Assembly (NCBI GenBank): GCA_000002435.2
Contig: CM018793.1
DNA from: Giardia intestinalis
Taxonomy: Eukaryota
Direction: 5' to 3' (one strand)
DNA: 64,000 bases
Shown: positions 1 through 19,718 of the stretch, one piece after another
How positions within the stretch are numbered: position 1 is the first letter of the stretch
Layout: each line of letters starts with the position of its first letter
Translations under genes and position numbers: made by a program
The notes under the pieces: generated by a model
Seen by the model: only the letters and a program-made list of their open reading frames with translations
Told to the model about the DNA's origin: nothing
The model's database searches: none

Positions 1-514
1 TTTCTGGAGCTGCACATACTACACAATTCTCGATACCTTTATACGTGTTACCGCCATTAACCTGCACTCCAGTTGTATCACTGCACGATATGCAGGAATC
101 TGTCGTGTCGGCCGCCTCTGGGCTTTTGAAGAATCCCCCAGTAGCATTACATTCTGTGCAAACGCCAGCAACAGCATTACGCCCTCCAGGTGAAGCAGCT
201 TGATCGTTGCAGATGAGGAGTGCGACATCACTGCCAAGTTGATAGCATCCACCCTTGTACATGAAGTATGTGTTCTCACATTTTCCACATGTCTTATCGT
301 CAACAAGCTCATTACCGTTAACTTTCTTGCATTTATCAGCCGCATTACCTTTTGGTGTACACTCCCCATTGATAGGAACGTTTCCATTTGTCGCGCATTC
401 TGTACAAATTTCAGTGCCGCCAACCATCTCACACTTACCTGCTGCACAATTTTGTACTTGCTTACATTGTGCCGCAAGGGCGCTCAGCCCAAGATAGAAA
501 GCTATCAGCAACAT
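1..514 (-). CDS. Cysteine-rich secreted or surface protein, VSP/HCMP-like; 3' end lies beyond the window edge
   Basis: Manual reverse-complement translation from the ATG at 514-512 gives MLLIAFYLGLSALAAQCKQVQNCAAGKCEMVGGTEICTECATNG...YKGGCYQLGSD...CISCSDTTG...CVVCAAPE. This shows an N-terminal signal peptide, repeated CXXC motifs and a GGCY motif. These are the hallmarks of Giardia variant-specific surface proteins and high-cysteine membrane proteins. The frame stays open to position 1, so it is absent from the ORF track, which lists only closed ORFs. The track ORF at 19..477 (-) is an out-of-frame artefact of this gene. Confidence 0.6.
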   Translation of the reverse strand, partial: MLLIAFYLGLSALAAQCKQVQNCAAGKCEMVGGTEICTECATNGNVPINGECTPKGNAADKCKKVNGNELVDDKTCGKCENTYFMYKGGCYQLGSDVALLICNDQAASPGGRNAVAGVCTECNATGGFFKSPEAADTTDSCISCSDTTGVQVNGGNTYKGIENCVVCAAPE

Positions 515-3500
515 TGAGATTCTTCTTAATCCACTATCAAGAATCCTACTAGCAAAGATACCCAAAGCTAAAAAGCTCCATTCGGTTATTGCTATGCTGC
601 CAGCTTAAAGAAATCCCTTTTTGATAATATTGTTGTACAAGAGATAGTTGTTAATGCCGAAAGCATCTACTAACTATAGTCTAGCACCCACCGCGGACCC
701 CTGCACAACATGCAGGGAAACAGAAAATTCAAAAATAAGTAGCAATGCTGTCCCGCGCGCATGCTGCTCCTCTACCCTGTGGCCAATCAGGGGGCGGCCC
801 GGGTGACCTCCCTGTGTTATGGGCCCACTGCTGGTTCCTCTCTTAATGTCTCTGCATTCCTGGGGAATTGGCCTCTTACGCCTTCCCTGTGCGGGTCGGG
901 CCCCTGCGGACCCCCGTGCGCAGATGATCTCTTCTCCGCCTCTATAGTATTCTCATCCCTTTGGACTATGTCTGCGACTTCTGGTTGTCATGGAGGAATC
1001 GCGCTCAAGGACAGTCCCTTGCAAGATCCCGAGAGACGGTTACAGTGGTCGCTAGGGTCCGTGGAAGTGCGAATCAGTGTAGATTAGCCTATGAGACGCT
1101 CTGGTTTGTTGGGTGTGCATGGTGCTATTTCTGGCTTTTTGTAGTGGATACTATTAAGATTCCCCATCGCATGATAAGGCGTCAGATGGTCAGAGGGCGT
1201 AGGCTAGTACTCCCAAATTTAAACAAGGAGGAAACCCTGCTCAAACTGTGCCATTTCTTGAGCTAACGGGGCAGGATTTCTATCCCCCTTCTGGATCATC
1301 CTGGTGCTATCACTACCACCACTAATGGAAGCACCTAGGAGTGCAATACCTTGAGCCTGTTAGTGTAGGGCTCTAGGTCCTCAGAGCTTCCTACATGTAG
1401 ATGCCTGTGAGGAAAGAATGGAGATCCAAGGAGGTTGTGTTGATTTGCCAGCAATTGGCCGGATGCCTGGTCCAGTACCCTCTATAGCCTCTTGTGGATA
1501 CTAGAGCAGTTGACCCCCATCTGCTGATAAGGGAATCGAATAGCATTCGTTCATGACCTTTGGTCCTAGCTGTATTTGGTCCCGAGGAGACACGCCAATC
1601 AGCCCAAGCATCCTACCTTTTGACTCACGAATCATGCCACACTGTAGGACTTGTACTGGTGCACCTTAGCATGCGTTAAATAATCCATAGAAGACCGGTA
1701 TCCTCCTGTCATATAGCTACAGGAGTCAGATAAAGCCTTACTGAGGGAACCATATCTTGCGATCCCCCGTGACCCCACTAGAGATCAAAAGAACCGATGT
1801 CTACGAGCTGATGTGAAAAATAGCAGGGTCCGACAGCATGCACCTTGAGTTGGGGATTCTATAAGCATGCACCTCTAATAAAGCTCTCAAGATCTTGTAG
1901 GAAGCTGACCTAGGTCAGTGACTGGAAGATCTTCAATGGGCAGGCGACTGCTGTGGTCTACTAGTCGCTCACCCCCTTTGTCGTGAAGGATATCTGTTAA
2001 TGTCTAGTGCTGCGGGCTGGGTGGCCCTTGTTCATCTGTGAGATTCGACTGGTGTATGTTGTAGACGAGTGACGAGATTGATATCGCCCTCTATCAGGTG
2101 GCTTTACATGAGTGGACAGACTCTGTAGTTGACCGGTTATTCCAGAAAGTCCTGCGCCTATGAGGTCACAGCCACAACCTGTATACGACAAGTAAAAGGC
2201 TCATTGGGATGAATGCTCTCTGCAGATCCCGCCGACTGTGTGGCTCATCACTGCCAAGCCTTCAAGATGGTAGCCTTGCTTGGCTGAGGCTTGCAGGTAC
2301 GAGTACAGTACAGCATCTTTCGAATCTACGGAGTCAAGCATACCTCAGACAATAAGGACAGGTGGAGACCCGAAGACAGCTAATACTAACCATGAGCTGC
2401 TCTGATCCTGTTATTCAAGAGAATAGTAGGGCCGCAGAATGGCAGGGTCCACTTTTGTGCTCTGCTCAGGGAGGCTGTGCCTTGGTGAAGGTATGCGTTA
2501 TGGCCACTATTGACTGCCCGTTGGCGGGCTATCACCTACTCTTGAGCCATTAACTAGGTTGCTGGTTGAATCAAGAAGCAACAACAGTATCATACGGACA
2601 ACGAGCAGAAAAGGCCGATGCTGATTGTATACCTCCCACGCCGAGTATACTCATTGTACAAGGCAAAGGGTCTAACGCCCTAAGTGGCCAGATGAAGCTA
2701 AGGCGCTTGTCAATAACGATATGCATACGGGCTTTAGCTGAGGGCTTGCGAGGGAATGTTGGGGAGCACAAGACTTGCCAGACTATATGAGATGCACAAT
2801 GAATGCCTACGTGGTAAACTGGTTGGCCTTTTCTTTGGTAGACAGGACCCTAGACTGTAGTGATTATTTGTATGACGTATGCCTTTGTGGGACCGATAAG
2901 AGCATTTGCATGCTAATCTGGAAAGGCCATCAGCAATGGTTGTACGAGATAGACAAGTAGAGGATAAGGGGTAGCCACGCCACTCTGGCTGATGAGCAAT
3001 CTAAACTACACAACGCGTGTGTCAATCTTTGGTCAAAGGCAGAGATGCATCTAGAATGTCACGTGGGCCGAGGACGCTGCTGATGGCTACCCGTTATGAG
3101 AAGGTGCAAGTGAGACACCTGCTAATAGCAACCACGTCGATTGGTACTGGCCTGCACAGTATATCTCTACAGTAGATCCTTGCTTGTATACGGAGAAAAG
3201 ATAAACGTCTTCGGCCTCAGACGAAACAGGTCCCAATAAATATTACACTGCTATAAGCGCATAAATCAAAAACTAGCTTCACCTGTCTGCAGACCTCGCG
3301 ATTTTTCTACACTCGAAGGCCAGAGAGACACCACAGGCGTCCCCATTGCAATCCGGATCTACAGCTTGTCTCTATAACGTCAGGCTTACCTCACTGATCT
3401 GCTAGTCGCCTTTACAGTCTTTGTGCAAACTTGCTCTCCAGGAACCACCGTGCACAAATAGCCTTTTGCGTACCTACCTAACATCTTCCTTCGTTGAAAT

Positions 3501-4669
3501 GTGGTGCCAAGGGCTAAGCATTATGAGGGGAGTGTGACCAAAAGCAAACCTCCTTGTAGTCTTGTCAGTATTAGTAGTGAGCATCCAAATGAGTGCATAG
3601 ATGCTTATCAAGTGCACTGTGATCCAGACTGCTCAGTAAGCTAGGCTCGTAGTAGGTAGTTCATGGGCCTCCGTCGCTAGCCCATGCATGAGCCGTTAGT
3701 CTCCTTGAGAGACGGTGGAGAGTTCCGTAGTCTTTCTGAATATACGGTCGTCACTATAATTGGTAGAGGAGTAGGCACAAAGACTAGAGGCTTACTTAGA
3801 GGCATCTCTAACACGACTAACTGCTATTTTCCGCTAACAACAGACAGGTTAGGCATTATGGTATTTACGCCACCTACTAGGGCGGCGCATGGCCATACAT
3901 GCATCAGCAGAGAAGCTGCTGTAATCTATGCTCAGTCTGCCGGGCAGACGCAGCTTCTCATCGCAGCAAACACGGTGACGGACAAGTCGCCAATGTAAGC
4001 CGGTCAAACTGCCCATCTCGGTACATCCATATGCAGTCGGAAGCTGTAGTACACATCTATGAAGATAACGCACCGTCTGCATGCTGTTGCCTCACTCTGT
4101 GCTAGTTATAGGGTTTAATGCCTCAGAAGTCAGGGCTAGTGTAGAATGTTCTAGAGTGTTCGTCTAGGAGACCAAGGTCGATACTGTGTGTGATGCACTC
4201 TTCAAGGAGACAGCAGCTACTGTCGTCCTTTCGGATTTTTTGGTGTCAGACAATCGGCCCCGTGGTGAGTTTACTCTTCGCAGCCTCCGTCTTCATATTG
4301 AGCCTGGCATCTGGCTGCTCAGGCTGTGGATGAAGAGGACGGTGCAGAGTATCAGTCGCTGGGCCGCCTTCTATTCGCACATTGTTCTGAGAAACAAATA
4401 GGACAGTACAGCTTCCTCTTTTGCTCTGGATGTGATGCAACCTAGCCGAGACATCTGCGCTTCTAGGGAGTGGCTGGTCAGTACCTAGAGGCATTCTGAT
4501 GGGCATGCTCACTACCGCCTGACTCTGTCCCCTCCCCGGCTACCAGGGGATGATGTCTTGAATGCATGCCCACAGAGCACTGCATAGCGATAACAAGATG
4601 GTGCTATCGCCCCTCAGGCTTCTCCAGCCTGTCTAGCAGTGTACTTCTCAGAGTCCAGTGTGGGCCTAC

Positions 4670-4689
4670 TAGTTGTATCGATACAACTA
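4670..4689. repeat. 20-bp perfect palindrome tagttgtatc|gatacaacta, centred on an ATCGAT core
   Basis: Read directly: positions 4670-4679 are the exact reverse complement of 4680-4689, and the flanking bases break the symmetry. It lies in the ORF-free stretch. Confidence 0.8.
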
Positions 4690-5282
4690 TAGATACCTTA
4701 TAGTATCACACCCGTCCAGCTCACCGTGCCCTGTCCCATCTAGAGAGCAGCCCAGCCGTGCACAGGAGCCCTTAGCTCCTATCCAGGACCTGGTCCAATG
4801 CTCAGCTGGTTCGGATTCCCTGCTACATCTTGCTGAAAGCCATGCTGAAGCCATCGACCCGGCGATTGCTCTAGGTTTACAACCCCCACACTCAGCCACC
4901 ATACACCCTTCTCCATGACAGGGAGGTTCGCTAGAGGAAGATGCTAGAGCTCTCTTGTTCCTGTCTCCTGGCCCTCCTGCTCATTCTATTGGATGCTCTC
5001 TAGACTCTTTTCTTCGAGTCCCCGCAGGCCTTCCTCAGCGGCTCACTCGTGGGAGCAGCCGCGGGTTTGTTGTCTACTGGGGACGCAGAGGGCTAGGCGT
5101 TGGACCACCGACTTCCCCATTTGGGCTTCTTCTCCCGCTGAAGTGGACGACGTTTGACTTGCGAAGTCTGGATTTGGATTTCGGTTAGTGAGTAAGCAAG
5201 AGACCTGCCCAGGGCGGCGCTGGCTCGCATGGGAGATTTTCTTGGACAGCAGCTGGCAAACCGGTTTTAGTGACGAAAGTAA

Positions 5283-5720
5283 ACCATCATTCGTGATGCT
5301 GAACAATGCGTGAAGAACGGGGCTGCCTGCAACTGGACGCCCAAGGCGAGGGGCGGAACGTGTGTGCAGAACGCCACGGGCGCATGGACGTGTCAGTGCA
5401 ACCCGGGCTACGTTGGAAGGCATTACGACCTCTGCGACAAGGGCATGACGGCTGTCGATGGGACCTGTACGCCTCACAATCTGGTGAAACTATACGCTAG
5501 CAAGAAGTGCCTGAACACCCGTCTGGCCGCCAGCGTGTGCACAGGGCACGGGGAGTGCTACAAGGACGCCTGTGTCTGCGCCGAGGGCTACCACGGGGAT
5601 CTGTGTGACTGCCGTGTGAGGAACATCGGGGCCGTGGCGGGGGTGACGGCGAGCACGGCCGTCTTCTTCGGGCTCCTCTTCCTGTCTGTGGCCAGGTGTC
5701 ATAGGACGCCCGCCCGGTAG
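5283..5720 (+). pseudogene. Start-less EGF-like/HCMP-like C-terminal fragment: EGF modules, a transmembrane helix and a short tail
   Basis: The open frame runs from the stop at 5280-5282 to the stop at 5718-5720 and reads ...CVKNGAACNWTPKARGGTCVQNATGAWTCQCNPGYVGRHYDLCDKG...CTGHGECYKDACVCAEGYHGDLCDC, followed by the hydrophobic stretch AVAGVTASTAVFFGLLFLSVA and then RCHRTPAR. There is no in-frame ATG; the track start is a GTG. The fragment begins where GC content rises sharply. Confidence 0.45.
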
Positions 5721-5773
5721 GGTGTACAAGTCCCGCACACGGCTAACCTACCCGCAGCCCAAAAAAGGACCGG

Positions 5774-7687
5774 ATGTTGCTGCTTACCTTGTCTTTCCTC
5801 TGCGCGGCATCGGCCGAGCGGGACCCGTTCAGCATCCATATGGCGTGCGAGCATGCCTTCGAGCGCTTCGTCGGCCTCTACGGGAAGGCCTACGACACGC
5901 CCGGGGACCGGCTGGAGGCGGAGCGGAACTTCTGCATGCACCTCGAGCACCTCCGGAGGCTCCGCCGGGAGGGCCACGAGCACGTCACCTTCGGGATCAC
6001 GTCCCGGATGGACCGCCACCCGCGCGCCGGCCTCCTCCCGCCCCGGTCGCTGGGGGGCGGCGAGTGGGGCGCAGTCACGGGCACATGCACACGAGATGAT
6101 AAATCGAATAAGTACACCAACTGCAACGTCGATGCATACGAGCTGGGGCCGGACCTGAAGGGAGACACTCAAGCTAATTCACAGAGTGCCAACGCTGACG
6201 ATAAGAGCAAGAAGCAGGACAGCTTCTTCCTCGTCGACGTGCGGGACATGAACGTCAACGGCAGGCAGCGGACGCTCCCCCACTCCGTCGACCTCCGCGA
6301 GGTGGGCCTCGTGACCCGCGCGAAGGACCAGGGCCTGTGCGGCTCCTGCTACGAGTTCACGACCATCGAGGTCCTCGAGAACCTGATGCTCGTCGACGCA
6401 GACCTCTACACGAGGGGGAAGTACCTCGATCCTAAGCCCTTTCCGTCGAACTACTTCTGCAACTGCTCGGCCCCTGCGAGTCAGGACGGGGACCAGAAGA
6501 GTAATGACTGCACCACAGGACTGATAACTGTTACAAATCGCACCGAACAGGACTATACCGACATCCCCGAGAACTGGAAGTCCTACAGCGCGTCCACCCT
6601 GCGCCTCTCCGTCCAGTTCCTCCTCGACAACCTCATCGGCGGGAACTACTGCAACGGGGGGAACTACTTCCGCGCCATCGCAGACTTCGTCAACAAGCTG
6701 AGCAAGCTCGCGAAGGAGTCCGAGTGCATCTACAGGGAGTACGCGACGCCCGAGAAGGCCGCCCCAGACGATGGTACTAAGTGTCAGGACACCAACATAG
6801 GAGACTTCAACCCTGCCTTCGTCTCCATGCCGATGAAGAAGAAGGGCAGCTCTTCTAATTCTGGCGCTGCAGCTACCGACGAATATGAGTATGATGTCAA
6901 TGGTGGCTCAGGCACCCCCAAGAAGTTCGGCGTCTACCAGATCCTGCGGAACGAGGGCGTGCCGGCCTCGGGGCCCATAGTCGGGGAGATGGACAAGGGG
7001 AAGTTCGCCGAGTGGGAGCGGAACGTCATGAACGTCCTGGCCCGCGGGGTCGGGGTCGCGGCGGCCATGCACACAGAGTCCGGCGTCGACACGTCGATCG
7101 ACAAGGACTACGAGTCCGTCGTCGCCTCTGCGCTGACGTTCAACCTCTACAAAGGCGGCGTCTTCCCCGACGTCAAGTGCGTGCGCGCGACCACGAACCA
7201 CCAGGTCATGCTCGTCGGCTACGGGGCGTACAAGGGCCGGCCCGTCTGGATCCTGCGCAACTCGTGGGGGACCGGCTGGGGCGTCTCGGGCTACTACTAC
7301 ATCGGCCGCGGCTCCAACTCGCTCTGCCACGAGCTGACCGTCGAGTACACGATGCCCCGCTTCTACGGGCCCGACCGCGACGGCGTCCACCCGCTCTTCC
7401 TCTCCGCGCCCGACGAGGCCCAGAAGGTCGCCATCGCAGACGCCGTCCGCGCCTCCCCGTTCAACAGCAAGATCAAGCGGTGCGTGAACGGGCTGGACAC
7501 GGTCGACGCGCACGGGGGCACGATGTGCGAGGCCCTCGAGGTCAGCGCGTGGAACTACGTCCTGGTGGGGGCCCTGGCCATCGTCATCTTCTTCCTCGGC
7601 CGGTACTGCATGCAGTACTACTTCTGCGCGCCGGAGTACATCTTCCACAGCCCCCTCAACCTGAACCTTCCGCACAAGGGCGTGTAG
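5774..7687 (+). CDS. Papain-family (C1A) cathepsin L-like cysteine protease precursor with signal peptide, I29-like propeptide, long low-complexity insert and C-terminal transmembrane anchor
   Basis: The signal peptide is MLLLTLSFLCAASA. The propeptide segment is ERFVGLYGKAYDTPGDRLEAERNF. The catalytic-Cys motif is KDQGLCGSCYEF, with Y in place of the usual W. The His motif is NHQVMLVGYG and the Asn/Trp motif is NSWGTGWG. The C-terminal hydrophobic helix is WNYVLVGALAIVIFFLGRYCM. The gene is GC3-saturated. Confidence 0.8.
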   Translation: MLLLTLSFLCAASAERDPFSIHMACEHAFERFVGLYGKAYDTPGDRLEAERNFCMHLEHLRRLRREGHEHVTFGITSRMDRHPRAGLLPPRSLGGGEWGAVTGTCTRDDKSNKYTNCNVDAYELGPDLKGDTQANSQSANADDKSKKQDSFFLVDVRDMNVNGRQRTLPHSVDLREVGLVTRAKDQGLCGSCYEFTTIEVLENLMLVDADLYTRGKYLDPKPFPSNYFCNCSAPASQDGDQKSNDCTTGLITVTNRTEQDYTDIPENWKSYSASTLRLSVQFLLDNLIGGNYCNGGNYFRAIADFVNKLSKLAKESECIYREYATPEKAAPDDGTKCQDTNIGDFNPAFVSMPMKKKGSSSNSGAAATDEYEYDVNGGSGTPKKFGVYQILRNEGVPASGPIVGEMDKGKFAEWERNVMNVLARGVGVAAAMHTESGVDTSIDKDYESVVASALTFNLYKGGVFPDVKCVRATTNHQVMLVGYGAYKGRPVWILRNSWGTGWGVSGYYYIGRGSNSLCHELTVEYTMPRFYGPDRDGVHPLFLSAPDEAQKVAIADAVRASPFNSKIKRCVNGLDTVDAHGGTMCEALEVSAWNYVLVGALAIVIFFLGRYCMQYYFCAPEYIFHSPLNLNLPHKGV

Positions 7688-7690
7688 CGC

Positions 7691-8917
7691 CTAGCGCCCG
7701 AACTCCCCGTCGTAGAGGGTGGTCAGGTAGATGTCCATGTTCTCGCTGAACCTCCGTGAGATCTCCAGTACATCGCTGTCCCCGATGGAGAAGTCGGACA
7801 GCCGCGGCCCCTCTGTGCTCCGGTAGTCGCAGAGGCTCTCCTCGTCTATGGAGACGACCCGGCTTGGATCGAAATTGACCAGCGTGTCGAACTTGTACTC
7901 GACCTCGCTCCGCTGCACTGAGATGGCGACCCCGCTGTTCAGGCCGCGCGCGCACCTTCCCACGCGGTGGGTGAGGGTGGCCAGCGACTCTGGGAGCTCG
8001 AAGTTGACCACCGAGCGAACCGCAGGAAGGTCGAGCCCACGGGCGAAGTTATCAGTTGCCAGGACGATCGTTGCAGGGTGTTCCTCGAGGGACTCGTTGG
8101 AGATGGCCGGGACAGACTCGAAGTTCGGCCTCCGGAAGACGTGCCCCTGGGCCACCAGCGTTATCCTGTACCGAAGCTCCTTGTAAACCTTGATCATCAT
8201 CAGGAACAGCAGGTGGGCGATGCGCTGCGCGGTGTGCCTGGAGTTGACGAAGACGATGCAGGGCAGGAGGGTGGTCCTCGAGTTGGTGATGGACCCGGCG
8301 GGGCTGCAGAGGAACCTGAAGACCAGGTATACGATGTCTATCTTGGAGTAGGTCCGCTTGAGCTGGACGACGAAGTGTTCGACGTTGGGCGAGAGGGCAA
8401 GGCGCGCGTGGCCCTCGTCGAAGTCCACCATGCACCCGCCGTGGAGGCCCATGTTCTCGAGCAGACTTGCCCGGTACTTCATGGTCGCAGAGAGGAAGAC
8501 AAACCTGTCCGTCGGGAGCCCAAGGCGGTGTCGCTGGGCGAAGAAGAGAGGCACGCGGAAGACGGCCGTGGAGTTCCGTTGAGCGAAGAACTCCCTGATG
8601 AGCGCCAGGAAGGACGTGTTGTCGTTGAGGAGGATGTGGTCTGCCTCGTCTATCACCACGTGCCGCAGCTTCAGGAACGAGGTTGCTCCGCGGGAGGCGA
8701 TTCCTGTGCCCGAGGCCGGCTTGACTGCCGTAAGGAGAGCAGAGACGATCCAGGGGGTGCCGCAGATGATGTACGATGTCTTGTCCTCTCCATACTCAAT
8801 GATATTTCTGAAGTCGGGAAGTTCAGAGTGTCTGAGCAGAGGCACACAGCGAACGAGACCAAGGAGCAGATGATAGACTGGCTGGAAGAACAGTGTCGCC
8901 TTGTGGATAAATGGCAA
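7691..8917 (-). pseudogene. DEAD-box RNA helicase lacking the N-terminal Q, I and Ia motifs; truncated copy or pseudogene
   Basis: The motifs appear in canonical order: Ib (IICGTPWIV), II (VVIDEADHILL), III (FLSATMK), V (ARGLDLPAVRSVVNFELP) and VI (HRVGRCARG). The track start is a TTG, immediately preceded by an in-frame TGA at 8918-8920. No GSGKT or Q-motif was found in any frame of 8918-9275 by manual translation. Its stop lies 3 nt from the cathepsin stop, in convergent orientation. Confidence 0.55.
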
Positions 8918-9275
8918 TCACAGACACCGACTATCTGCCAATACTATCTCGTCCGACACCAGCTAGACACATATGAATATAACACGCCCTTCTGGTCAGT
9001 AACAGATACTATGGAGTATCCGAAGGTCTCACTTATCAACGAGCCTTCAGATTATTTTTCGGCAGGCGATTATCTTTCTCGATTCCCTGAGGACACGGTT
9101 CAGCTGGTCGACAACAGCTAGGTAAGCTTTTTATCTTAAGAGTAGACTCAAGTGCATCGGAAGCTATAATGTTATGCAGCAAGCATTACACGTAGCTCAG
9201 CGAGGACACAGCGCTGAAAAACCGATTACTGAAGGTGACAGAGGGCAAAGTAAATCTTCGACAAAATACAATTCA

Positions 9276-11054
9276 CTAAAGTGTTTTTACATTACAGTGC
9301 TTTCCAAAGTATCCAACAGAACAAACACAGTTATATCCATTGCACTTTCCATGACCACTGCACACCTCGTTAGTAGCTGAGTTGGTAATACACGACTCGT
9401 TAACGCACTCGCCATCAATGACCTTAGCATCTGAGCGACAAGAGCATTTGTAGCTGCCATCATCTTCTACGCAACGGCCATATCCTCCGCAAACAGACGT
9501 CGTCTGCGCCACATCATCGTAACTCGTCACACATTCTTCGTGGACACACAAGTTATTGACAAATGTTTGGCCAGTAGGACACTGGTACCACTCACAAAGA
9601 GCCCCGCTATATCCTTCGTTACACTTACAGACGCCATCAGTGCAAGTTCCACGATTGCTGCAGATTATAAGTGAAGCAGTCACGCAGCTATTTGGAACAC
9701 AGATCCCCCCTGGAACGGTTTCATAACCGGAATCACAACTGCACATGTAACACACGTCGAACACATCTCTTCCAGAATATGCAATACAGGTACCTTTGCC
9801 AGAGCAGACCGATAGAGCATCAGGGTTGCGTTCATCAATGCACGACCATGGCTGGCAAACCCCATCTATCAGTGTCGCCTCCGACGAGCATTCTTCGCAA
9901 GTAGGACCTGAGTTTGTTGGGTTACAGCTACACACACCGGTGTCAAAGTCGCATGATCCCGCACTGTGACATAGCTGAGGCGGATTCGTCTGACTATTGG
10001 TGACACACGAGGACGGGTAGCAGACAGAATTCCGACCAATGTAGTCAGTGGGACAAATACACCGGGGAGGGTTCATTGAAGCATCATATGTGCCATGAGG
10101 ACACACAATGCCATTCACGATGCAAGAGGCATAGATGCAGGTGTTTTCGTAGAAGACGAAACCGTCATTACATGCGCAAGCCGCTCCATCATTGTTCCAA
10201 ATACAGCGGCCGTGGCCACCACATACACTCTCGTCGGAAATGCAGGCCTCCGGATAGCATGTCTCTTGAGCAGACACGAACCCTGGTTCGCAATCGACGA
10301 CCTTGTACTCGCAAGTGGGCCCATTGTATCCGCTATCGCAAACACAGCGAGTGCCAGCACAGATACCTCTATCAGAGCAGACCTCCGTTATGCCATACAA
10401 GTTATACTCAGTAATGCAGCCATTATAAATGCAAGTGTTATTGTAGAAGGTACCATCATATGGGTAGCACGAGCAAACATAGTGAATGTTCGGGAAGGGC
10501 ATAATCATGCAGCGGCCCAATCCATTGCAGACCAGTGTCTCTCCAGGGACAAATTCCGTCAGGCAAGACTTGTGAACACACGCTCCATCAATAAGAACAG
10601 CCTCAGATGAGCACTCTGTGCACTTTTCGCCCGCGTTCGCAGGATAGCAGCGACAGTATGGCGCGCTCCCATCGGTTGGCTGAATGCACGTCCCGTAGCC
10701 AAAGCAGACGCCTTCCTCAGTGTAGCAAGCTTCTGGAACACAGACCTGGTAGTCGTTAATGTAGCCCTGGTCACAGCTACACTCATAGCTTCCGTGTTCC
10801 GACTCCACACATTTTCCATGGCCATTGCAAACATCATCAGACGCAAGGTAGCAGATCGACGGGTAGCATCCCTGATTTCCAAGACTGTAGCCAGAGTCGC
10901 ACCTACAGACCGAGGCTGTGCAAGTTCCATGATTGTTGCACACTGTGTCTTCAAAAACACAGCTGGATGGATAGCAAGCTCCATCAACTTCAACCTCTCC
11001 GTCTGGGCAATGGATTGCGGTGCAGAGAGCCACTAGCGTCAAGACGAAGATCAT
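9276..11054 (-). CDS. Secreted tenascin-like EGF-repeat protein with about 15 or more EGF-like modules and no transmembrane segment
   Basis: Repeated units of the form CxCxxGYxGxxC occur throughout, for example CRCDSGYSLGNQGC, CSCDQGYINDYQVC and CVCDSGYNGPTCE. The signal peptide is MIFVLTLVALCTAIHC. The start is re-set to the ATG at 11054-11052, preceded by the AT-rich tract aacttaaaaacttg. The longer track ORF begins at a TTG at 11138. Confidence 0.7.
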   Translation of the reverse strand: MIFVLTLVALCTAIHCPDGEVEVDGACYPSSCVFEDTVCNNHGTCTASVCRCDSGYSLGNQGCYPSICYLASDDVCNGHGKCVESEHGSYECSCDQGYINDYQVCVPEACYTEEGVCFGYGTCIQPTDGSAPYCRCYPANAGEKCTECSSEAVLIDGACVHKSCLTEFVPGETLVCNGLGRCMIMPFPNIHYVCSCYPYDGTFYNNTCIYNGCITEYNLYGITEVCSDRGICAGTRCVCDSGYNGPTCEYKVVDCEPGFVSAQETCYPEACISDESVCGGHGRCIWNNDGAACACNDGFVFYENTCIYASCIVNGIVCPHGTYDASMNPPRCICPTDYIGRNSVCYPSSCVTNSQTNPPQLCHSAGSCDFDTGVCSCNPTNSGPTCEECSSEATLIDGVCQPWSCIDERNPDALSVCSGKGTCIAYSGRDVFDVCYMCSCDSGYETVPGGICVPNSCVTASLIICSNRGTCTDGVCKCNEGYSGALCEWYQCPTGQTFVNNLCVHEECVTSYDDVAQTTSVCGGYGRCVEDDGSYKCSCRSDAKVIDGECVNESCITNSATNEVCSGHGKCNGYNCVCSVGYFGKHCNVKTL

Positions 11055-11137
11055 CCAAGTTTTTAAGTTAGTTGAAATTATTTCTCCATTGTGGAAAGTT
11101 TGCAATAACGAAATTGCAAATTTGCTTCCTACAAACA
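11055..11137. promoter_or_regulatory. 83-bp divergent intergenic spacer between the tenascin-like gene and the HECT ligase gene; candidate bidirectional AT-rich initiator region
   Basis: Both flanking ATGs are preceded by A/T-rich tracts, caagtttttaag on one side and aaattgcaaatttgcttcctacaaacaATG on the other. There is no room for a long 5' UTR. Confidence 0.4.
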
Positions 11138-14100
11138 ATGGAAGGAGAATACGACTCTGACGTCACACCATATGACTCGCCGCAACCAGAATCTATAAAA
11201 GACTTCCTCCTCAACTTTAACCCATCACGTTTCAGATTCGCCATGCCTCTACGTCGGCAAGATCTGGATCCACCGCTATTAGTCGCAGAGACATGCAACG
11301 TGGAATTGGCTTGTGGCCGGGAGGCCATCTTATCCATCAGCCGCTTTAAGACCAGACAGCACCGTTTAAGGTATACTTTAGCGCGGTTGCGAGAGCGTAC
11401 CTCATGCCCTTCTGCAGTTTGCAATTGTCCCTGTGATAACAGCATTTTTGTCAGTGCTTCTGATCATGTTTGTGACACCATGGAAGCACCTACCATTGTT
11501 CCCTTATCTCTCACTTCTGATGCACAAATAAACCCCCAGTCGTCTCGGCCATCATCTGCTGGTTCAGCTGAGGCACAGACATTCCTTCACAATTGCCTTA
11601 ATAATTTCGCCGATCCGGCTGCTCTGAAGCAATGCACACAAATGCTACGAGAGAATAATAACTTGCTGCCATCAGAGCTGGTTACGACATCTTTTGTTGG
11701 GAACGTCAGAGATTGCCTTGTAGAACTTGGTGCCATGTTGTCCACTAATTACTCTGTATCAAATGTCTTAACTATAGCCCAGAAACAGTTCCTTACAGAG
11801 CTTCTCCGACGCACGAATAAGTTTTTTCTTAGCAACTCTCGCAGATATGAATCTGCACTAAGCTTCGTCTGTGCACTCTGGCCGCTCTGGGTGTACCTTT
11901 CTCAAGTTTTTGATAAAGCAATCTGCGACGTGGTTTCTACTAACCTTAACACTATAACAAAGTTCTACAGCATCAATGTTTCAAAGCGAGTTGGAGAGTA
12001 TATCCAGGCAATGCAAAAGTTGGATTCTACACAGCAAGGATCGGAAAAAAGCATAGATGACCCTGGAGAGCCAGTCGGTAAGTCTGACGACTCCAAGGCG
12101 GTGGCTAAGCTGTCTGTTGACAATATCATTTCAAGCCTACCATCGCACTCCTTGCTTCGCCGCTTCTGTGATGCAGGATTTAAAAACCCTTTTCTTCAAG
12201 CTGCTAGCTGCAAACTTACTTGCCAGCTGTTCACTATATGTAATGACCTGGTCTCTTTTCATCCGGATTTACGCATGCTCATTCACGGGGGTGTTACTTT
12301 TGAGTCCCTTCAAAGTCTCCCCCTCTCAGTTGAGAGCGTGAAGATCGCTAGATATACCTCCTCCAAGGTTTTCTTGCTGCAGGCGCAGCGTGTGTATCGC
12401 AAGTATGGCGATGAGATAGCTGCTGATGCGGACCTGGATGACCTCACACTTCTTCTTCATGACTACTATTTCCATGTGATACACAGCATGACAGAGGACG
12501 GGGTGGAAGAGCCAAGGGATGCGCCCTGTGACGTGAACCATTCTGGCTATATGCAACACTCTTCACTGAACAATGTATCCAAAAGCGACGAGCCAGAGGA
12601 GACGCTCACAGATATGTTTTACAAGCGTGGAAAAGAGGTAGATAGAGCGGTTCTCAGCGCTATTAACCTCCTTAAAGAACGGGCCAGGGAAGATGCTGTT
12701 TCTCCTACATTTACTGGTGATGATGGGTCTTCGGATGAGGATGACGCTGCTGTTGCAACAGAATTGGCCCGCCTGATGGCCTCTCCACCATCAGACTCTG
12801 ATTCCGATGTAGCTGAATCGACTACTACTGCAACTACTGCCATAGACTCCAGTGAAGAAGAGAGCGGTCATGCTGCTGACCCCACTGATGAATTAGGCGT
12901 CGCGCTTCCTAGTAGCCTGTGCACGGCTGTAAACGTACCTAGCAACGCGACAGTAGCCACAGCAGAGCCTGTCATTGAAGGACCTGTCACTCAACTTGAC
13001 GATACTCCAAATGATCAAGAGCCGACACCTCAGCTGCCTGAGGGCAAACTCAATGAACAGGCTGATGAAGAGTCCAGAAAAGACGTTATGCAAAGTGATG
13101 TTTATGATATCAGACAGATGCGAGCGATCAGCGAGGACTACGTCTCTAATTGGCTGAGTCACAACTTCCTCGAAGACGAAATGGCCATGTCTTTAGAGAC
13201 TCAAATGCGGCATATGTGTATGTTCATTTCCTCTGTTTCCCTCGTTGTCTCAGAAGCCGACTCTGAGGCAATCAACACGGAACCTCAGCAGGGACAATCA
13301 TTCTCGGAACAAGAAGAATATTTGCTTAGCCAAGCAATTGAGAAGCTGGCTACGCGGTTTGTAGAAACTGTATCTCTGGATGGACCTCTCAATAGTGTGA
13401 GCATAGCACTTATTCACGAGTTTCTCTGCATTTTCCTGTACTGCACGAGCCTTGGATTTGTTGGAGAGTTCGAGTGCATCAATTTTGACACCTTTCTGCA
13501 AATACTTCAGCACGTAGACTTGTATTCTGAGACTATCCGTTCTGTGAACAGATATATAAAGTCTATGAGTCTGCTCCAGAACGAGGACATCCGAGAGTCT
13601 CTTGTTTCTTACGATAAGAAGATATTTGACTTTCTTCTCAAGAAGTTCAGTATCGTCGATGATGCGTATTACCTCAACGCAGAAAATCCTGCACTAGTTC
13701 GCGACACTAGATTGACAAACTTGCAGTCTAGGATCCAAAACGTTGATGCCTTGAGTGCGACAGTTCGTGATCTCCAGAGGCTGATCGAGAAGCAGTGCAA
13801 TATGACCACTTGTGAGTTCATTAGTTCTTGCTTGATAGAGCATCAGTGCCTGAATTGCATCATTATGGACCTTATTATCCGATCACAAAAGGACTTCTCA
13901 GCGTTCCTCGTTGCCAATCCTGACCAGCTTCTCCAGCTTTTACATGTCTGCAAGGATAATTTACTGAACGATGTGCCTGCTAAAGAACTGGCAACAGAGA
14001 ACATCGACGTAACTCTCAGAAACAGGCTTTCATACTTCCTGCTAATGCTTTTCATTCTTTCACTGCTGGATACAGATACGATTGTTCACTCCATGCAGCT

Positions 14101-17100
14101 CCTACTGAGTCCTGTAGCTAACCCAGAAGAGACATGTGCAGATGGAACCACGGCTGAAGATAGTACTGCAGGAATGGAAAAGCAACACATAACTTCAGAC
14201 CCTACTCGTGCTATGAGTACGTTTACGATTGACAACGTTGTTACCTTGATCTGTGCATACTTACAATCCATATGTAAGTACTCGCAACAATACTCCACCG
14301 ATCGGAGCATTACATATACACTCAATACAATCAACAAGCCGGCTCGGGGCAGTGGGAAGGCGATCAAAATTCCCTTTGAACTGTTCAGAAACAAGGTTGA
14401 TGGAAGCATATACTTTGTGGAGGGAACAAGCGTGGCAAAGCTTTTGACTGTTATTACGGAGCCCTGCTATGCTGGGCTATTTGAGAAGTCGTATGCTCTC
14501 ATACCAAAATTGAAGGTTCGGTCAGATGCCGGTGGAATCGCTAGGCGTCTACTAACGACTGGGCACCTACCACTGGTGGGCATGCGTACTTTGAATACTG
14601 ATCTCTACGATCGTATCAAGCTAATGACGGGAAGGGAGCGGAGTGAGGATCTGCGTTATGTGGATAAGGCCATTCCACGGATACTTCTTGCATCTCTCTT
14701 TTTGGATCGCGTCGCTAGAGCACGCATACCCATATCTGCGTCCCCATTAGAGTCGCTGTTGATGACCCTTGAATATCTTGTCCACAAAAAGCTAATTACG
14801 CACTTGGCTGACCCACCAGATGGAGACTCCGTTTTGGCACAAAGCCTTTTCTGCTTCCCCGCAGGAATTAAGCCAAAGGTGTCTTCATTTATTGTGTCGT
14901 TGTTCACGCTTTCAAAGCATCCCATCAGCATGACGCTTTCTTATGCCCTATTCCACTGGCTAGAACTGCCAGCTACTGAGCTAGCTTTGTTTTACAATAC
15001 TCTGGAAAAATTGCCCAATTTTGGTTTTATCAATTTGCCCACAGAAAGGATTGCGGCAGCTTTAGCGGCCAAAGATGACCCTGAATCGTTGGATATAGTT
15101 GATCCCCATAGTGCTGAGCAAGCACCTGCCTCTCTTTTAGCGCAGCAGGGATTGCCAGGGACACTTGCTGCCACCCAAGTTCAGGCAGAAGCATCGTCTT
15201 GCAGCCTTGCTTCCTTCGCCTCTACAGACCTTTTGGACCAATCACTTATACATTCCCCTGTTGATAAGCTATTGTCATCCATGGGAACGCAAAGTACGTG
15301 TGCCTTTCAGTATCAATCACAAGCTATACTAGAAGAGTATACCTCCTTGGCGCAACTTTTTTACAGGAGCTTCACGCACGTGATAGTAATATTGCTGTTT
15401 GCGTTAGGGAACTGGAGATGTTATCCTCTCGGCCAGTTCTTGTACCTACCTGCTGAGCGGATATCCCAATTGCAAGGCAAGACCTTTTCTATTCCTGATA
15501 GATTGACCATGCTGAATTCACTATCTATCATCTTAGGGGAGATAGAAGCCATAGTGGCGTTTATACCGTTCATTCAGCAAACACTTCCTGTAGTGACGCT
15601 CCTCAGTGGTTGCCTGGCACACATTGACGAGGCCATCTTCTTAGGCAATGAACCCATCATACGAACGCTACTCCGTATTCTATTACCAGGAGAATTATAC
15701 TTCTCGCTGATGCGACCTCCGTCGGCGCAGACAGGGCAGATGCACTCTCTCACTTCCTCGTTGGCAACCAAGCCCTTGTCGGCAGGCGGGTCCATACTTC
15801 CGGCCCGTCCGCTATCCTCATCGTTAACCACTAAGCCAGGATACTTTATGACTGGATCAATTAATCAATCGCGTGGAGGACTATCTGTATCTCTTAAAAC
15901 CAAGCAGATGGTTCTTGCATGTCTACGGACTACCCTCGCGAACGCAATTCAAATGTGTGCATTATCTACTCTACCCCAGACCTATCCCTTCTATAATATC
16001 TATACAAACGAGCTGCTTCAGCTCTCTCAACTAGAAATATGCTCTATTTACCTAATAGGATGGTTGAGGCTCACTCAAAACTTGACACTATGCTATGATG
16101 GTGCCCTCGTTGCTCAGCTTGTCACAATTCTCTCCTACTTTCCGCAATTGAGGTACGGTATTCAGCGAGACACCCCTGAAGAGCCGTCCGAATTAGAACA
16201 CGCCGCATCTTTTAATGCGTTCGGTTCGGTGACCTCTAACGCGACTCCACTGATGCATACCAATTCCCCGGCTTTGCGCCCCTCATCAAGAGCGTCCACA
16301 GCTTCCAAGGCAACCTTGAGAGGGATATCAGCGGGAGCATCTAGCCTGAACTTTAGGAGTATTCCTGGTCTCTTTTCTCCTAACTTTAATGTGGTCAGCA
16401 CTCCCTTTATTGCGCTGCTTTTTCCTGCCTTTACGTTTGATGGGGCTGTGAGTAACTTCGTCGGCTGGATGATATACCATTTTCTTCTAGGTTACGTTAA
16501 ATCTGGCGGTTTAGAGGGGATGCTGCATCAAATACATATATCAGAGGAGTCTGTACCTTTAGCTGGTGTGTCTGTACACGCTGACTTAGATTCAGGACCA
16601 GAAAAGTATATCGAGTCATTAACCAGCTACTTCTCCACGCAAATGGAGCTTGTTTCAGCATGCAAGAATATATGTTCGCTTGTCTCTGCTCTCACATCTG
16701 TGCTTCAGTACGACATGCTCCACCTTTCTGATTCTTCAATGCAGCTCGGACACAAGCTATCTGCACATGTCCTTCAGGGCATGCTCATGGCTCTGCCCGG
16801 AACTGTGTGCAACACAGGTGAGTCTATGTTTGATGACCCCAACTCTACCAGTCGAATGGCAAAGATACTGATTCCTCTCTCAGCACCTTTGGGAGCATTT
16901 TCAACAGCCGGTTGCTTCGCCATAGATTTACCAAGCACGCAGGTTATCAAAACGGATGCAGAAGAAACAGATACTGCAAAAGAGCAAACAGAGGAAACTA
17001 AAGAAGAGACAGAAAAACAGACACTTGGTACCAAGATGATAGATGTATACGTTCCAGCGCCAAAGGTGGCTGGAAGCTTATCAGAGACGCATTTTTCGTA

Positions 17101-19036: not shown

Positions 19037-19142
19037 GTAGTAAAGAGCTGCATTACATTATAGAATGGGCTTGATACACTCTACTACTGAGCTCTAAAGC
19101 GCCTGCAGAGTGAGTCGGCCGTTCACAGTTCACAAAAACTTG

Positions 19143-19697
19143 ATGCCCCTGGGGGACGCCTTCCATTTGCCACAGATCCAGATGAGGCGGGGGTCTGTTA
19201 CTAAGCCACCACCCTCGATCCTCGGGGGTTCAAAGGAAAACAGCCCAGAGGAGCAGCTTCGGACTCGGCTCCCTGCCCTCCGATCAGCCGCGTATCAGCG
19301 GCCTATAGCCCACCAGAAGGACTCTTCCCCTGCTCTTGAAAAGAGCAGTCTGCGGCTGAGTGCAGGCCTCGGTGCATCGGGCCACGGACCCTTCGCACTG
19401 CCGCTATCGCCCTGTCTTTCTGCCGTATGCTCTACTAACGCGGGGTCAACTGGATCATCCTATGTAGCCACTCCTCTCCAACTATCTCAGACAGGCATGT
19501 GCGTAGGAAGCCCTATAGTCGAAGGTTTAGCCGGAATCCCCCCACGCGAAGTAGAGCCTAAGATTGTTTCCATGTTCAAGTACAAGGGCGGGGAGATGAC
19601 TATTATCAACCGCATGATACGAATGTATACGAGCCACAACTTAGGGAGCATCTACGAGCTGCGAAGACTAATACTTGGTGGTGAACGCCTTAGCTGA
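19143..19697 (+). CDS. Hypothetical Ser/Pro-rich protein of about 184 aa
   Basis: This is an open frame in the 680-bp gap between the HECT and Rab genes. The first ATG is at 19143; the track start is a GTG. No recognisable domain was found. Coding potential is judged only from length and composition. Confidence 0.3.
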   Translation: MPLGDAFHLPQIQMRRGSVTKPPPSILGGSKENSPEEQLRTRLPALRSAAYQRPIAHQKDSSPALEKSSLRLSAGLGASGHGPFALPLSPCLSAVCSTNAGSTGSSYVATPLQLSQTGMCVGSPIVEGLAGIPPREVEPKIVSMFKYKGGEMTIINRMIRMYTSHNLGSIYELRRLILGGERLS

Positions 19698-19718
19698 AAA
19701 AACTGTTAGCTATCATTT

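What the first reader, a model, noticed from the sequence alone, without database searches (positions are those of the whole stretch)
1..11054. Cluster of secretome-type genes: VSP-like, HCMP-like fragment, cathepsin and tenascin-like EGF protein
Within 11 kb there are four genes, or gene remnants, for signal-peptide-bearing, cysteine-rich or proteolytic products. They are a CXXC/GGCY protein, an EGF+TM fragment, a cathepsin and a secreted protein with about 15 EGF modules. In Giardia these same classes dominate the proteins released on host-cell contact. Their co-location with a gene desert and pseudogene fragments suggests a plastic surface-antigen or virulence locus.
Basis: partly seen in the sequence, partly recalled or inferred. 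Interest (0 to 1): 0.6.

Follow-up and report, generated by a model that had tools for sequence, protein, structure and literature searches.

The report
Giardia secretory genes around duplicated protease
The four secretory-type genes are real but already annotated in the Giardia WB reference genome; they sit together because a duplicated, GC-rich protease segment lies between a variable surface-antigen region and a conserved block, not because they form a functional secretome unit.

Summary
The window is Giardia intestinalis WB, chromosome 5. All four elements exist.

- **VSP:** a 5' part at 1-514(-).
- **HCMP stump:** a promoterless 3' stump of a 1374-aa EGF-type HCMP, 5304-5720(+).
- **Protease:** an intact 637-aa papain-family protease, 5774-7687(+).
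- **EGF protein:** a 592-aa protein, 9276-11054(-).

The EGF protein is EGFCP5 (GL50803_16322), a characterised cyst-wall protein also found in published secretomes. It heads a block syntenic in assemblages A, B and E.

The protease is a membrane-anchored cathepsin K/L type, not the secreted cathepsin B type. None of six of its predicted tryptic peptides occurs in the held supplementary tables of one secretome study.

The HCMP stump, protease and helicase stump form one copy of a 3.3-3.8 kb dispersed repeat. DH (A2) has four copies in different contexts, three P15 (E) loci were fetched, and WB, DH and P15 each have four protease paralogues.

The copies evolve in concert: 230 sites group them by assemblage and 3 by locus. 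GC3 is 0.82-0.89 inside the repeat and 0.39-0.63 elsewhere, changing within genes at the repeat boundaries. That suggests GC-biased gene conversion.

DNA left of about 9250 differs between isolates. The "plastic locus" idea is partly supported; a functional secretome cluster is not. Mostly known biology.

The parts
1..514 (-). 5' part (171 codons) of a VSP gene. The ATG is at 514-512 and the gene runs off the window start.
   Evidence: Translation; Pfam VSP 31.3 bits against a 31.4 cutoff; 96% identity over 188 aa to a 436-aa DH VSP ending in CRGKA; 5 CXXC motifs and GGCY.
515..5303 (.). Gene-poor spacer ('desert'), 47-57% GC.
   Evidence: No ORF longer than 108 aa; no Rfam hit; no tandem repeats; no VSP, HCMP or RT remnant by tblastn. 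Collinear with the left flank of DH L006 at 92% identity; DH carries an extra 3.1 kb with a reverse-transcriptase fragment at window 4903/4935.
5304..5720 (+). 3' stump of an EGF-type high-cysteine membrane protein (2 EGF units + TM + tail). It has no start codon and no signal peptide. This is the left end of the repeat.
   Evidence: Matches residues 1200-1374 of the 1374-aa protein of DH L005; nucleotide homology to L005 and L001 starts at 5304; EGF Pfam hits; no in-frame ATG; GC3 0.82.
5774..7687 (+). Intact 637-aa papain-family (cathepsin K/L-like) cysteine protease with a signal-like N-terminus and a C-terminal TM. This is the core of the repeat.
   Evidence: Exact match to KAE8305602.1; Peptidase_C1 E=1.7e-31; CGSC189, NHQV475, NSWG496 and TM at 587-615; nearest solved structures are cathepsin K/S/L/H; A-rich motif before the ATG; GC3 0.89.
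7691..8827 (-). 5'-truncated DEAD-box helicase stump. It keeps DEAD, SAT, HRVGR and Helicase_C but lacks the Walker A motif. The mechanical ORF runs on to 8917 and starts with TTG.
   Evidence: 96.8% identity to residues 184-561 of the 561-aa helicase of DH L006, whose GSGKT motif is at residue 68; Pfam Helicase_C; GC3 0.83; 45-bp segment at 8538-8582 shared only with the full-length copy.
8822..9146 (.). Non-helicase tail of the repeat, shared only by the copies next to EGFCP5 and next to the ankyrin/UTP20 genes. This is the right end of the repeat.
   Evidence: Homology with L006 ends at 8821; with L001, L004, L005 and L007 it ends at 9136-9146. Two Logan contigs at 98.6% identity both end at window 9080.
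9276..11054 (-). EGFCP5 (GL50803_16322, 'Neurogenic locus Notch protein'): a secreted 592-aa EGF-repeat cyst-wall protein.
   Evidence: Same 90%-identity protein cluster as KAE8305605.1/XP_001706880.1. The published cloning primers EGFCP5NF and EGFCP5MR match exactly at 11334-11354(-) and 9279-9299(+). A published secretome peptide, CDSGYSLGNQGCYPSICYLASDDVCNGHGK, occurs in the ORF.
11138..19036 (+). HECT ubiquitin ligase (2632 aa), divergent from EGFCP5 with 83 bp between the ATGs. It is the next gene after EGFCP5 in the conserved syntenic block and lies outside the finding.
   Evidence: Pfam HECT; same neighbour in DH, P15, GS and GS_B.

Best explanation
The first 11 kb is a junction, not a functional gene cluster. 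On the right is a conserved syntenic block that begins with EGFCP5 and the HECT ligase. On the left is a variable, gene-poor VSP neighbourhood.

Between them lies one copy of a dispersed segmental duplication of about 3.3-3.8 kb (5304/5521 to 8075/8821/9146, depending on the copy compared). Its cargo is an intact, membrane-anchored cathepsin K/L-like cysteine protease. When this gene was copied it took along the last ~175 codons of the upstream EGF-type HCMP, of which 136 remain here. It also took the last 378 codons of the downstream DEAD-box helicase. These two stumps are most likely non-functional.

The copies lie in different contexts, often next to VSP genes. DH has four, three P15 loci were fetched, and WB, DH and P15 each have four protease paralogues. 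The copies are kept alike by interlocus gene conversion.

Inferred: this conversion is GC-biased and has driven third-codon-position GC to about 0.85 strictly inside the repeat. Recombination between copies has probably also reshuffled which flanks are joined to which.

The apparent enrichment of secretory genes therefore comes from three sources: hitch-hiking in a duplication, the known habit of VSP/HCMP genes to occupy variable regions, and a conserved EGFCP5 gene that happens to border the region.
For: **Identity.** The window is WB chromosome 5. EGFCP5 is confirmed by exact primer matches and by the paper.

**Repeat.**
- The window aligns to P15 L001 only over 5304-9136.
- DH has four copies with different flanks (L005-L008).
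- P15 has at least three fetched loci (L001, L004, L011) and four proteins in one cluster.
- WB has four proteins on three contigs.
- Short-read contigs break at the repeat edge.

**Stumps.** The HCMP fragment equals residues 1200-1374 of the full protein, and the helicase fragment equals residues 184-561 and lacks GSGKT.

**Concerted evolution.**
- A copies are 95-98% alike, P15 copies about 97% overall (up to 100% in sub-regions), and A versus E is about 92%.
- The flanks prove positional orthology between A and E.
- Quartet sites: 230 group by lineage, 3 by locus, 3 support the third grouping.
- The WB copy is a mosaic. Its 45 bp at 8538-8582 are shared only with the full-length-helicase copy.

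**GC.**
- The region 4001-8000 holds the only 2-kb bins above 52.5% GC in the 64 kb.
- GC3 is 0.82-0.89 in the three repeat ORFs against 0.39-0.63 in the 21 other ORFs.
- Within the full-length DH helicase, GC3 goes from 0.43 to 0.85 at the repeat boundary (p=7e-24).
- Within the 1374-aa HCMP it goes from 0.41 (codons 1-700) to 0.79 (codons 1001-1374) (p=1e-33). It already rises from about codon 700, upstream of the repeat boundary at codon 1200.
- The short copy L008 shows 0.39 outside and 0.84 inside (p=5e-9).
- Derived W->S variants sit in more copies than S->W variants (means 2.45 and 1.72; p=3.6e-5).

**Variable left side, conserved right side.**
Against: - The other three WB copies could not be fetched. 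The flank pairings in WB are therefore known for this copy only.
- DH and P15 are 454-era drafts, and some flank pairings or near-identical stretches between copies could be assembly artefacts.
- The window's left flank is only 92% identical to DH L006, so true orthology of that flank is uncertain.
- The W->S spectrum uses parsimony polarisation with a close outgroup that is itself converting. Selection for G/C-ending codons would give the same skew.
- In the full 1374-aa HCMP, GC3 starts to rise about 500 codons upstream of the repeat boundary, so that step does not track the boundary as cleanly as the helicase one.
- No expression or localisation data for the protease or the stumps were examined.
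Confidence: 0.75

Rival explanations
1. One reading: a functional, plastic secretome or virulence island whose members (VSP, HCMP, cathepsin, tenascin-like protein) are grouped because they act or are regulated together at the host interface.
For: - These classes are the ones reported as abundant in Giardia secretomes (abstracts).
- EGFCP5 (16322) was detected in WB and GS secretomes.
- The left part is variable between isolates.
Against: - The HCMP element is a stump with no start codon and no signal peptide.
- The protease is TM-anchored and K/L-like, unlike the secreted cathepsin B enzymes 14019, 16160 and 16779. None of six of its predicted tryptic peptides occurs in the held secretome tables.
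- A helicase stump interrupts the group.
- The genes lie on both strands and are separated by 4.8 kb of non-coding DNA.
- EGFCP5 lies in a conserved block, whereas its left neighbours differ between A/E and B.
- The HCMP-protease adjacency is explained by co-duplication.
- The co-location is expected about twice per genome by chance (my estimate).
Confidence: 0.12
2. An assembly artefact: the WB reference joined the wrong left and right flanks through a 3.6-kb repeat that is more than 95% identical between copies, so the VSP/spacer side and the EGFCP5 side are not truly neighbours.
For: - DH joins the EGFCP5 side to a different left flank.
- Short-read contigs break at the repeat edge.
- The join of both junctions to the same repeat copy is not confirmed by any other assembly I could fetch.
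Against: - The WB reference is built from PacBio reads at 200X and checked against optical maps, and the repeat is only about 3.6 kb.
- Each junction is seen independently. The spacer-stump-protease junction is in DH L006. The helicase stump-EGFCP5 junction is in DH L005 and P15 L004.
- The window copy's 8538-8582 segment and its high identity to L006 up to 8821 form a coherent mosaic rather than a random chimera.
Confidence: 0.07
3. The GC richness of the repeat is not caused by biased gene conversion. It reflects either selection for G/C-ending codons in a highly expressed protease, or a foreign (horizontally acquired) origin of the segment.
For: [quoted passage not shown]
- Codon selection would also skew the W->S spectrum.
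- In the 1374-aa HCMP, GC3 rises well upstream of the repeat boundary, so repeat membership alone does not explain all of the GC shift.
- The weak hits beyond the diplomonads are mostly bacterial or metagenomic C1 peptidases.
Against: - GC3 changes from 0.43 to 0.85 inside one helicase mRNA exactly at the repeat boundary. It drops at a different boundary in the shorter copy L008. Expression-linked selection should act on the whole mRNA.
- The probably dead stumps are as GC3-rich as the protease.
- GC at codon positions 1 and 2 is unchanged.
- The bacterial hits cover only 6-14% of the protein, around a conserved catalytic stretch. The next relatives are Hexamita cathepsin L at 28% identity, so there is no sign of transfer.
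Confidence: 0.2

Closest known systems
EGFCP family of Giardia cyst proteins (Chiu et al. 2010, PMC2867935), also annotated as tenascin-like or Notch-like
   Same: The ORF at 9276-11054 is EGFCP5 itself. The cloning primers match exactly. It is 592 aa with 83 Cys, a signal peptide and no TM. The paper shows it in encystation vesicles and the cyst wall, and released into encystation medium.
   Different: Nothing differs. It is not a metazoan tenascin or Notch: Pfam finds only EGF-type modules.
Secreted cathepsin B proteases of Giardia (CP14019/giardipain-1, CP16160, CP16779)
   Same: Papain-family (C1A) fold with a Cys-His-Asn triad. Both belong to the 26-gene cysteine-protease repertoire of WB.
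   Different: The window protease is 637 aa, has long insertions and a C-terminal TM, and is nearest to cathepsin K/S/L/H rather than B. None of six of its predicted tryptic peptides occurs in the held secretome supplements.
VSP/HCMP-associated variable regions and synteny breaks in Giardia genomes (Jerlstrom-Hultqvist 2010, PMC3091692; Xu 2020, PMC7000408)
   Same: There is a VSP next to gene-poor DNA, HCMP-type sequence nearby, higher G+C and altered codon usage, breaks of synteny between isolates, a reverse-transcriptase remnant in the DH version, and duplicated segments.
   Different: Here the GC shift is confined to the repeat and not to the VSP (GC3 0.39) or the spacer. Its edges coincide with the repeat edges in the helicase, even inside that gene. 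The papers I read do not report that.
Concerted evolution with GC-biased gene conversion in multicopy genes (rDNA: Escobar et al. 2011, as cited in PMC10123126; mammalian histone and Hsp70 paralogues, from my own knowledge)
   Same: Paralogues are more alike within a lineage than positional orthologues are between lineages. GC3 is raised only in the converting segment. W->S variants are favoured.
   Different: The copies are dispersed over at least three chromosomes-scale contigs rather than tandem. For Giardia, the only mention of the mechanism that my literature search found was a suggestion for rDNA. The bias itself is inferred here, not measured.

Membership tests
VSP (Giardia variant-specific surface protein, PF03302) | N-terminal signal peptide, many CXXC motifs and a GGCY motif | tested here: met
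   MLLIAFYLGLSALAAQC at the N-terminus, 5 CXXC in 171 aa, and KGGCY present.
VSP (Giardia variant-specific surface protein, PF03302) | C-terminal TM followed by CRGKA | not testable with these tools
   The 3' end lies outside the window. The 96%-identical DH homologue ends in ...FLCWWFICRGKA.
VSP (Giardia variant-specific surface protein, PF03302) | Pfam model above the gathering score | tested here: inconclusive
   31.3 bits against a 31.4 cutoff on the truncated 171 aa.
HCMP (high-cysteine membrane protein) | Complete gene with a signal peptide, at least 20 CXXC/CXC motifs and one TM (criterion as quoted in PMC2867935) | tested here: not met
   Only 136 codons, no ATG or signal peptide, 3 CXC and 0 CXXC; the TM is present. 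It is the last ~175 residues of a 1374-aa protein.
Papain-family C1A protease, cathepsin K/L-like | Peptidase_C1 domain with catalytic Cys, His and Asn | tested here: met
   PF00112 E=1.7e-31; CGSC189, NHQV475, NSWG496; best solved-structure matches are cathepsin K/S/L/H.
Papain-family C1A protease, cathepsin K/L-like | I29-type propeptide (ERFNIN) | tested here: inconclusive
   No Pfam I29 hit at E<=0.01. By eye, residues 27-60 (FERFVGLYGKAY...EAERNFCMHLEHL) resemble it.
Secreted cathepsin B of Giardia | Cathepsin B-type sequence, soluble, detected in the secretome | tested here: not met
   K/L-type nearest structures; TM at 587-615; none of six predicted tryptic peptides in the held secretome tables, some of which are cut.
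EGFCP cyst proteins | Signal peptide, no TM, 70-83 Cys, EGF repeats, identity with ORF 16322 | tested here: met
   83 Cys, N-terminal hydrophobic segment only; EGF Pfam hits; exact primer matches; ORF 16322 is 592 aa on GLCHR05.
Metazoan tenascin / Notch | FN3 repeats and a fibrinogen globe (tenascin), or LNR, ankyrin and TM (Notch) | tested here: not met
   Pfam finds EGF-type modules only; no TM.
DEAD-box RNA helicase | Both RecA domains, including motif I (Walker A, GxGKT) | tested here: not met
   The window copy starts at residue 184 of the 561-aa protein. GSGKT at residue 68 is missing; DEAD, SAT and HRVGR are kept; the ORF starts with TTG.
Dispersed segmental duplication under concerted evolution | Several copies with different flanks; paralogues closer within a lineage than positional orthologues between lineages | tested here: met
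   Four DH loci and three P15 loci; identity matrix; quartet sites 230:3:3.
GC-biased gene conversion | GC3 excess confined to the converting tract, and W->S variants at higher frequency than S->W | tested here: met
   GC3 steps within the helicase at the repeat boundaries, p=7e-24 and 5e-9; a broader rise in the 1374-aa HCMP, p=1e-33. Copy-frequency spectrum p=3.6e-5. The bias in actual conversion events was not measured.

The most novel reading that the evidence does not exclude
The protease repeat is a clean natural marker of frequent, GC-biased ectopic gene conversion between chromosomes in Giardia, an organism with no observed meiosis. The same recombination between copies reshuffles chromosome arms between isolates: WB joins VSP/spacer to EGFCP5, DH joins tRNA-synthetase/HCMP to EGFCP5, and P15 joins tRNA-synthetase/HCMP to ankyrin/UTP20. 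If this is general, biased conversion would explain the published 'higher G+C and odd codon usage' of Giardia's variable gene families.
Probability: 0.4. Interest if true: 0.5.

Novelty: already known. Interest (0 to 1): 0.27.

Why it matters
As given, the finding restates annotated content of the Giardia WB reference genome and features of VSP neighbourhoods that are already published. Its practical value is a set of corrections.

- EGFCP5 is a cyst-wall or secreted protein in a conserved block.
- The protease is a membrane-bound K/L type present as four near-identical paralogues, so reads and peptides will map to several loci.
- Two of the five elements are dead stumps.

The by-product could be worth a genome-wide follow-up. 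Within one gene, GC3 steps at the repeat boundary, and the copies evolve in concert. Together these give a simple sequence signature for recombination activity in a parasite whose sexual cycle is unresolved.

Tried and rejected
1. **Other WB copies.** I tried to fetch the other three WB protease loci by exact protein look-up (P0043, P0045, P0047). None is on record, so WB flank pairings remain unknown.
2. **Hidden features in the 4.8-kb spacer.** Rfam gave no hit at E<=0.1. There are no tandem repeats and no ORF longer than 108 aa. tblastn found no VSP, HCMP or RT remnant.
3. **RIP-like hypermutation of the spacer.** WB and DH differences there are 313 transitions and 37 transversions, which looked unusual. 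I rejected the idea because unique Giardia DNA shows Ts/Tv of 7-18 in the same comparisons.
4. **Window from an unannotated assemblage.** The first homology tables showed only ENA and Logan sources. The cluster look-up showed exact WB accessions, so I rejected this.
5. **Horizontal origin of the GC-rich segment.** Rejected. The bacterial hits cover only 6-14% of the protein.
6. **EGF protein as EGFCP1.** This was my first recollection. The paper shows ORF 16322 is EGFCP5.
7. **Literature.** Searches by accession numbers found nothing. Searches for concerted evolution or gene conversion in Giardia paralogues found nothing specific.
8. **Protease peptides.** Six predicted tryptic peptides of the protease were searched in the Ma'ayeh 2017 supplements and none was found. 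Some of those files are truncated.
Full report
**Source and observation**

The window is Giardia intestinalis WB clone C6. The ORF at 5774-7687(+) is residue-for-residue KAE8305602.1/XP_001706883.1, carried on the 4,018,654-bp contig.

- **VSP, 1-514(-).** The minus strand encodes a VSP N-terminus, MLLIAFYLGLSALAAQC..., with 5 CXXC motifs and KGGCY. It runs off the window. Pfam VSP scores 31.3 bits against a 31.4 cutoff. A 436-aa DH homologue is 96% identical and ends in CRGKA.
- **EGF+TM fragment, 5310-5720(+).** It encodes 136 aa with two EGF-type hits and a C-terminal hydrophobic segment.
- **Protease, 5774-7687(+).** A Peptidase_C1 protein, E=1.7e-31.
- **EGF protein, 9276-11054(-).** A 592-aa protein with 83 cysteines, an N-terminal signal-like segment and no TM.

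It carries Helicase_C and part of a DEAD domain.

**What each element is**

*The EGF protein is EGFCP5.* It falls in the same 90%-identity cluster as the WB protein 'Neurogenic locus Notch protein' (KAE8305605.1) and the DH 'EGF-like cyst protein'. Chiu et al. 2010 (PMC2867935) list ORF 16322 as EGFCP5. Their cloning primers EGFCP5NF and EGFCP5MR match the window exactly. EGFCP5NF lies at 11334-11354(-), 280 bp upstream of the ATG. EGFCP5MR lies at 9279-9299(+), on the last codons.

That paper localises EGFCP5 to encystation vesicles and the cyst wall, and finds it released into encystation medium. The Ma'ayeh 2017 secretome supplements list GL50803_16322 (592 aa, GLCHR05:3220941-3222719(-)). 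Its listed peptides occur in the window ORF. The GS orthologue GL50581_31 is also listed. It is neither a tenascin nor a Notch: only EGF modules are found.

*The protease is a membrane-anchored K/L type.* It has the catalytic signatures CGSC189, NHQV475 and NSWG496. It has a hydrophobic segment at about 587-615 and an A-rich motif before the ATG. Its nearest solved structures are cathepsins K, S, L and H. This is not the cathepsin B type that the literature reports as the major secreted proteases. Six of its predicted tryptic peptides are absent from the held secretome supplements, some of which are truncated.

*The EGF+TM fragment is a stump.* It matches residues 1200-1374 of a 1374-aa EGF-type membrane protein of DH and P15, with an internal deletion. 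It has no in-frame ATG and no signal peptide.

*The helicase ORF is a stump.* It matches residues 184-561 of a 561-aa DEAD-box helicase of DH at 96.8% identity. It lacks the Walker A motif, GSGKT at residue 68 of the full protein. It begins with TTG.

*The spacer is empty.* The stretch 515-5303 has no ORF above 108 aa, no Rfam match, no tandem repeat, and no detectable VSP, HCMP or RT remnant.

**A dispersed repeat explains the core of the 'cluster'**

The P15 locus that holds the best named protease hit aligns to the window only over 5304-9136, at 87% identity. Its neighbours differ on both sides.

DH has four copies:

| Locus | Left flank | Right flank |
|---|---|---|
| L005 | tRNA synthetase + full 1374-aa HCMP | EGFCP5 + HECT |
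| L006 | VSP + gene-poor DNA, with an RT fragment | full-length helicase and other genes |
| L007 | VSP-like sequence | ankyrin protein ... UTP20 |
| L008 | VSP | other genes |

P15 has three fetched loci:

| Locus | Left flank | Right flank |
|---|---|---|
| L001 | tRNA synthetase + HCMP | ankyrin ... UTP20 |
| L004 | contig end | EGFCP5 + HECT |
| L011 | VSP | other genes |

WB, DH and P15 each have four protease proteins in one 90% cluster. Assemblage B has several, many of them 'partial' at contig ends.

All copies share 5521-8075. Homology extends to 8821 in the full-length-helicase copy and to 9136-9146 in the EGFCP5-side and ankyrin-side copies. On the left it reaches 5304 in the HCMP copy. 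Two Logan contigs that are 98.6% identical to the window both stop at window 9080, as expected at a repeat edge.

So the HCMP stump and the helicase stump are pieces of the neighbours that were copied along with the protease gene.

**Concerted evolution**

The flanks establish positional orthology between assemblages. P15 L004 is collinear with the window from 9252 to 21059. P15 L001 is collinear with DH L007 on the right and with DH L005 on the left.

Within the repeat, however, the A copies are 95-98% identical to each other. The P15 copies are about 97% identical overall and up to 100% in sub-regions. A versus E is about 92%.

In a quartet of two positional pairs, 230 informative sites group copies by assemblage, 3 by locus and 3 the third way.

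The WB copy is a mosaic. It carries 45 bp (8538-8582) otherwise found only in the full-length-helicase copy. Its right tail (8822-9146) is of the truncated type.

Against DH L005, the repeat is 94-97% identical in most 500-bp bins, while most of the adjoining unique DNA is 98-99.6% identical.

**The GC island**

The 2-kb bins covering 4001-8000 are 57-63% GC. The next bin, 8001-10000, is 52.5%, and all other bins of the 64 kb are 42-51%.

GC3 is 0.82, 0.89 and 0.83 for the three repeat ORFs. It is 0.39-0.63 for the 21 other ORFs, including the VSP (0.39), EGFCP5 (0.50) and HECT (0.47).

The shift follows the repeat edges even inside genes.

- In the full-length DH helicase, GC3 is 0.43 in the unique codons 1-185 and 0.85 in codons 186-561 (p=7e-24).
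- In the 1374-aa HCMP it is 0.41 in codons 1-700 and 0.79 in codons 1001-1374 (p=1e-33). It already rises from about codon 700, upstream of the repeat boundary at codon 1200.
- In the shorter copy L008 it drops at that copy's own boundary, 0.84 inside and 0.39 outside (p=5e-9).
- GC at codon positions 1 and 2 does not change.

Among variants polymorphic between the A copies and polarised by P15, derived W->S changes are present in more copies than S->W changes. Means are 2.45 and 1.72, singletons are 21% and 59%, and Mann-Whitney p=3.6e-5.

I infer GC-biased gene conversion. Codon selection could mimic the spectrum, but it cannot easily explain a step inside one mRNA or the same GC3 in dead stumps. 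The only Giardia-related mention of this mechanism that my search found is a suggestion for rDNA. The general statement that variable-family regions have higher G+C and different codon usage is published (PMC3091692).

**Is the locus plastic?**

The right side is not. EGFCP5-HECT-small GTPase is collinear in WB, DH, P15, GS and GS_B.

The left side is.

- In assemblage B, the 1.0-1.3 kb beyond EGFCP5 hold an ankyrin fragment and a VSP 3' end, and both contigs stop there. No helicase or protease sequence is present.
- In DH, the EGFCP5-side copy is joined to tRNA synthetase + full HCMP rather than to VSP + spacer.
- The WB spacer matches the left flank of DH L006 at only 92%, with a 3.1-kb indel. 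The EGFCP5/HECT block is 98.6% identical.

Whether the differing flank pairings are real exchanges between copies or draft-assembly chimeras cannot be decided here. Both window junctions are, however, seen independently in other assemblies. The WB reference is long-read based and checked against optical maps.

**Verdict**

The region left of EGFCP5 is a variable VSP-associated neighbourhood. There is no evidence for a functional secretome cluster, and simple counting suggests that such a run of family members is expected by chance about twice per genome (my estimate, from the family sizes).

All the genes are annotated. EGFCP5 is experimentally characterised. The general properties of such regions are published.

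The part that may be new is the tight coupling of GC3 to the repeat boundaries, together with strong concerted evolution of a dispersed protease repeat. It deserves a genome-wide test but rests on draft assemblies and inference.

Noticed in passing
window 8538-8582: A 45-bp (15-codon) segment of the helicase stump is present in the window and in the DH full-length-helicase copy (L006). It is absent from DH L005 and L007 and from P15 L001 and L004. This makes the WB copy a mosaic, through either a conversion tract or a crossover between 8582 and 8821.
   Followed up: partly
window 5521-8075 versus flanks: The transition/transversion ratio is 7-18 in unique Giardia DNA (WB-DH, WB-P15) but only 2.4-4.6 in the repeat core, which has relatively many C<->G changes. 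The cause is unknown.
   Followed up: no
window 4903/4935; L006 5937-9032: At this point of the spacer, DH carries an extra 3.1 kb with a reverse-transcriptase (RVT_1) fragment that the window lacks.
   Followed up: partly
window 5700-9121, both strands: There are many long overlapping ORFs, for example 6908-7675(-) of 255 aa, 7012-7749(+) of 245 aa and 7967-9121(+) of 384 aa. They are by-products of GC3 of about 0.85, which leaves few stop codons, and are not genes.
   Followed up: yes
window 11054-11138: The ATG of EGFCP5 (minus strand) and the ATG of the 2632-aa HECT ligase (plus strand) are divergent and only 83 bp apart. This is a shared, very short intergenic region.
   Followed up: no
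L009 and L010 (assemblage B), last 1.0-1.3 kb: Both assemblage B assemblies end just past EGFCP5, in an ankyrin fragment followed by a sequence like a conserved VSP 3' end. This region is therefore a repeat-associated assembly break in B too, but with different content from A and E.
   Followed up: partly
window 54080-55297(-): This is the only ORF outside the repeat with somewhat raised GC3 (0.63, against about 0.48 for its neighbours). I did not look into it.
   Followed up: no
L002, L003 (Logan SRR21529620, SRR18693200): These contigs are 98.6% identical to the window, the same distance as DH. They probably come from sub-assemblage AII-like isolates.
   Followed up: no
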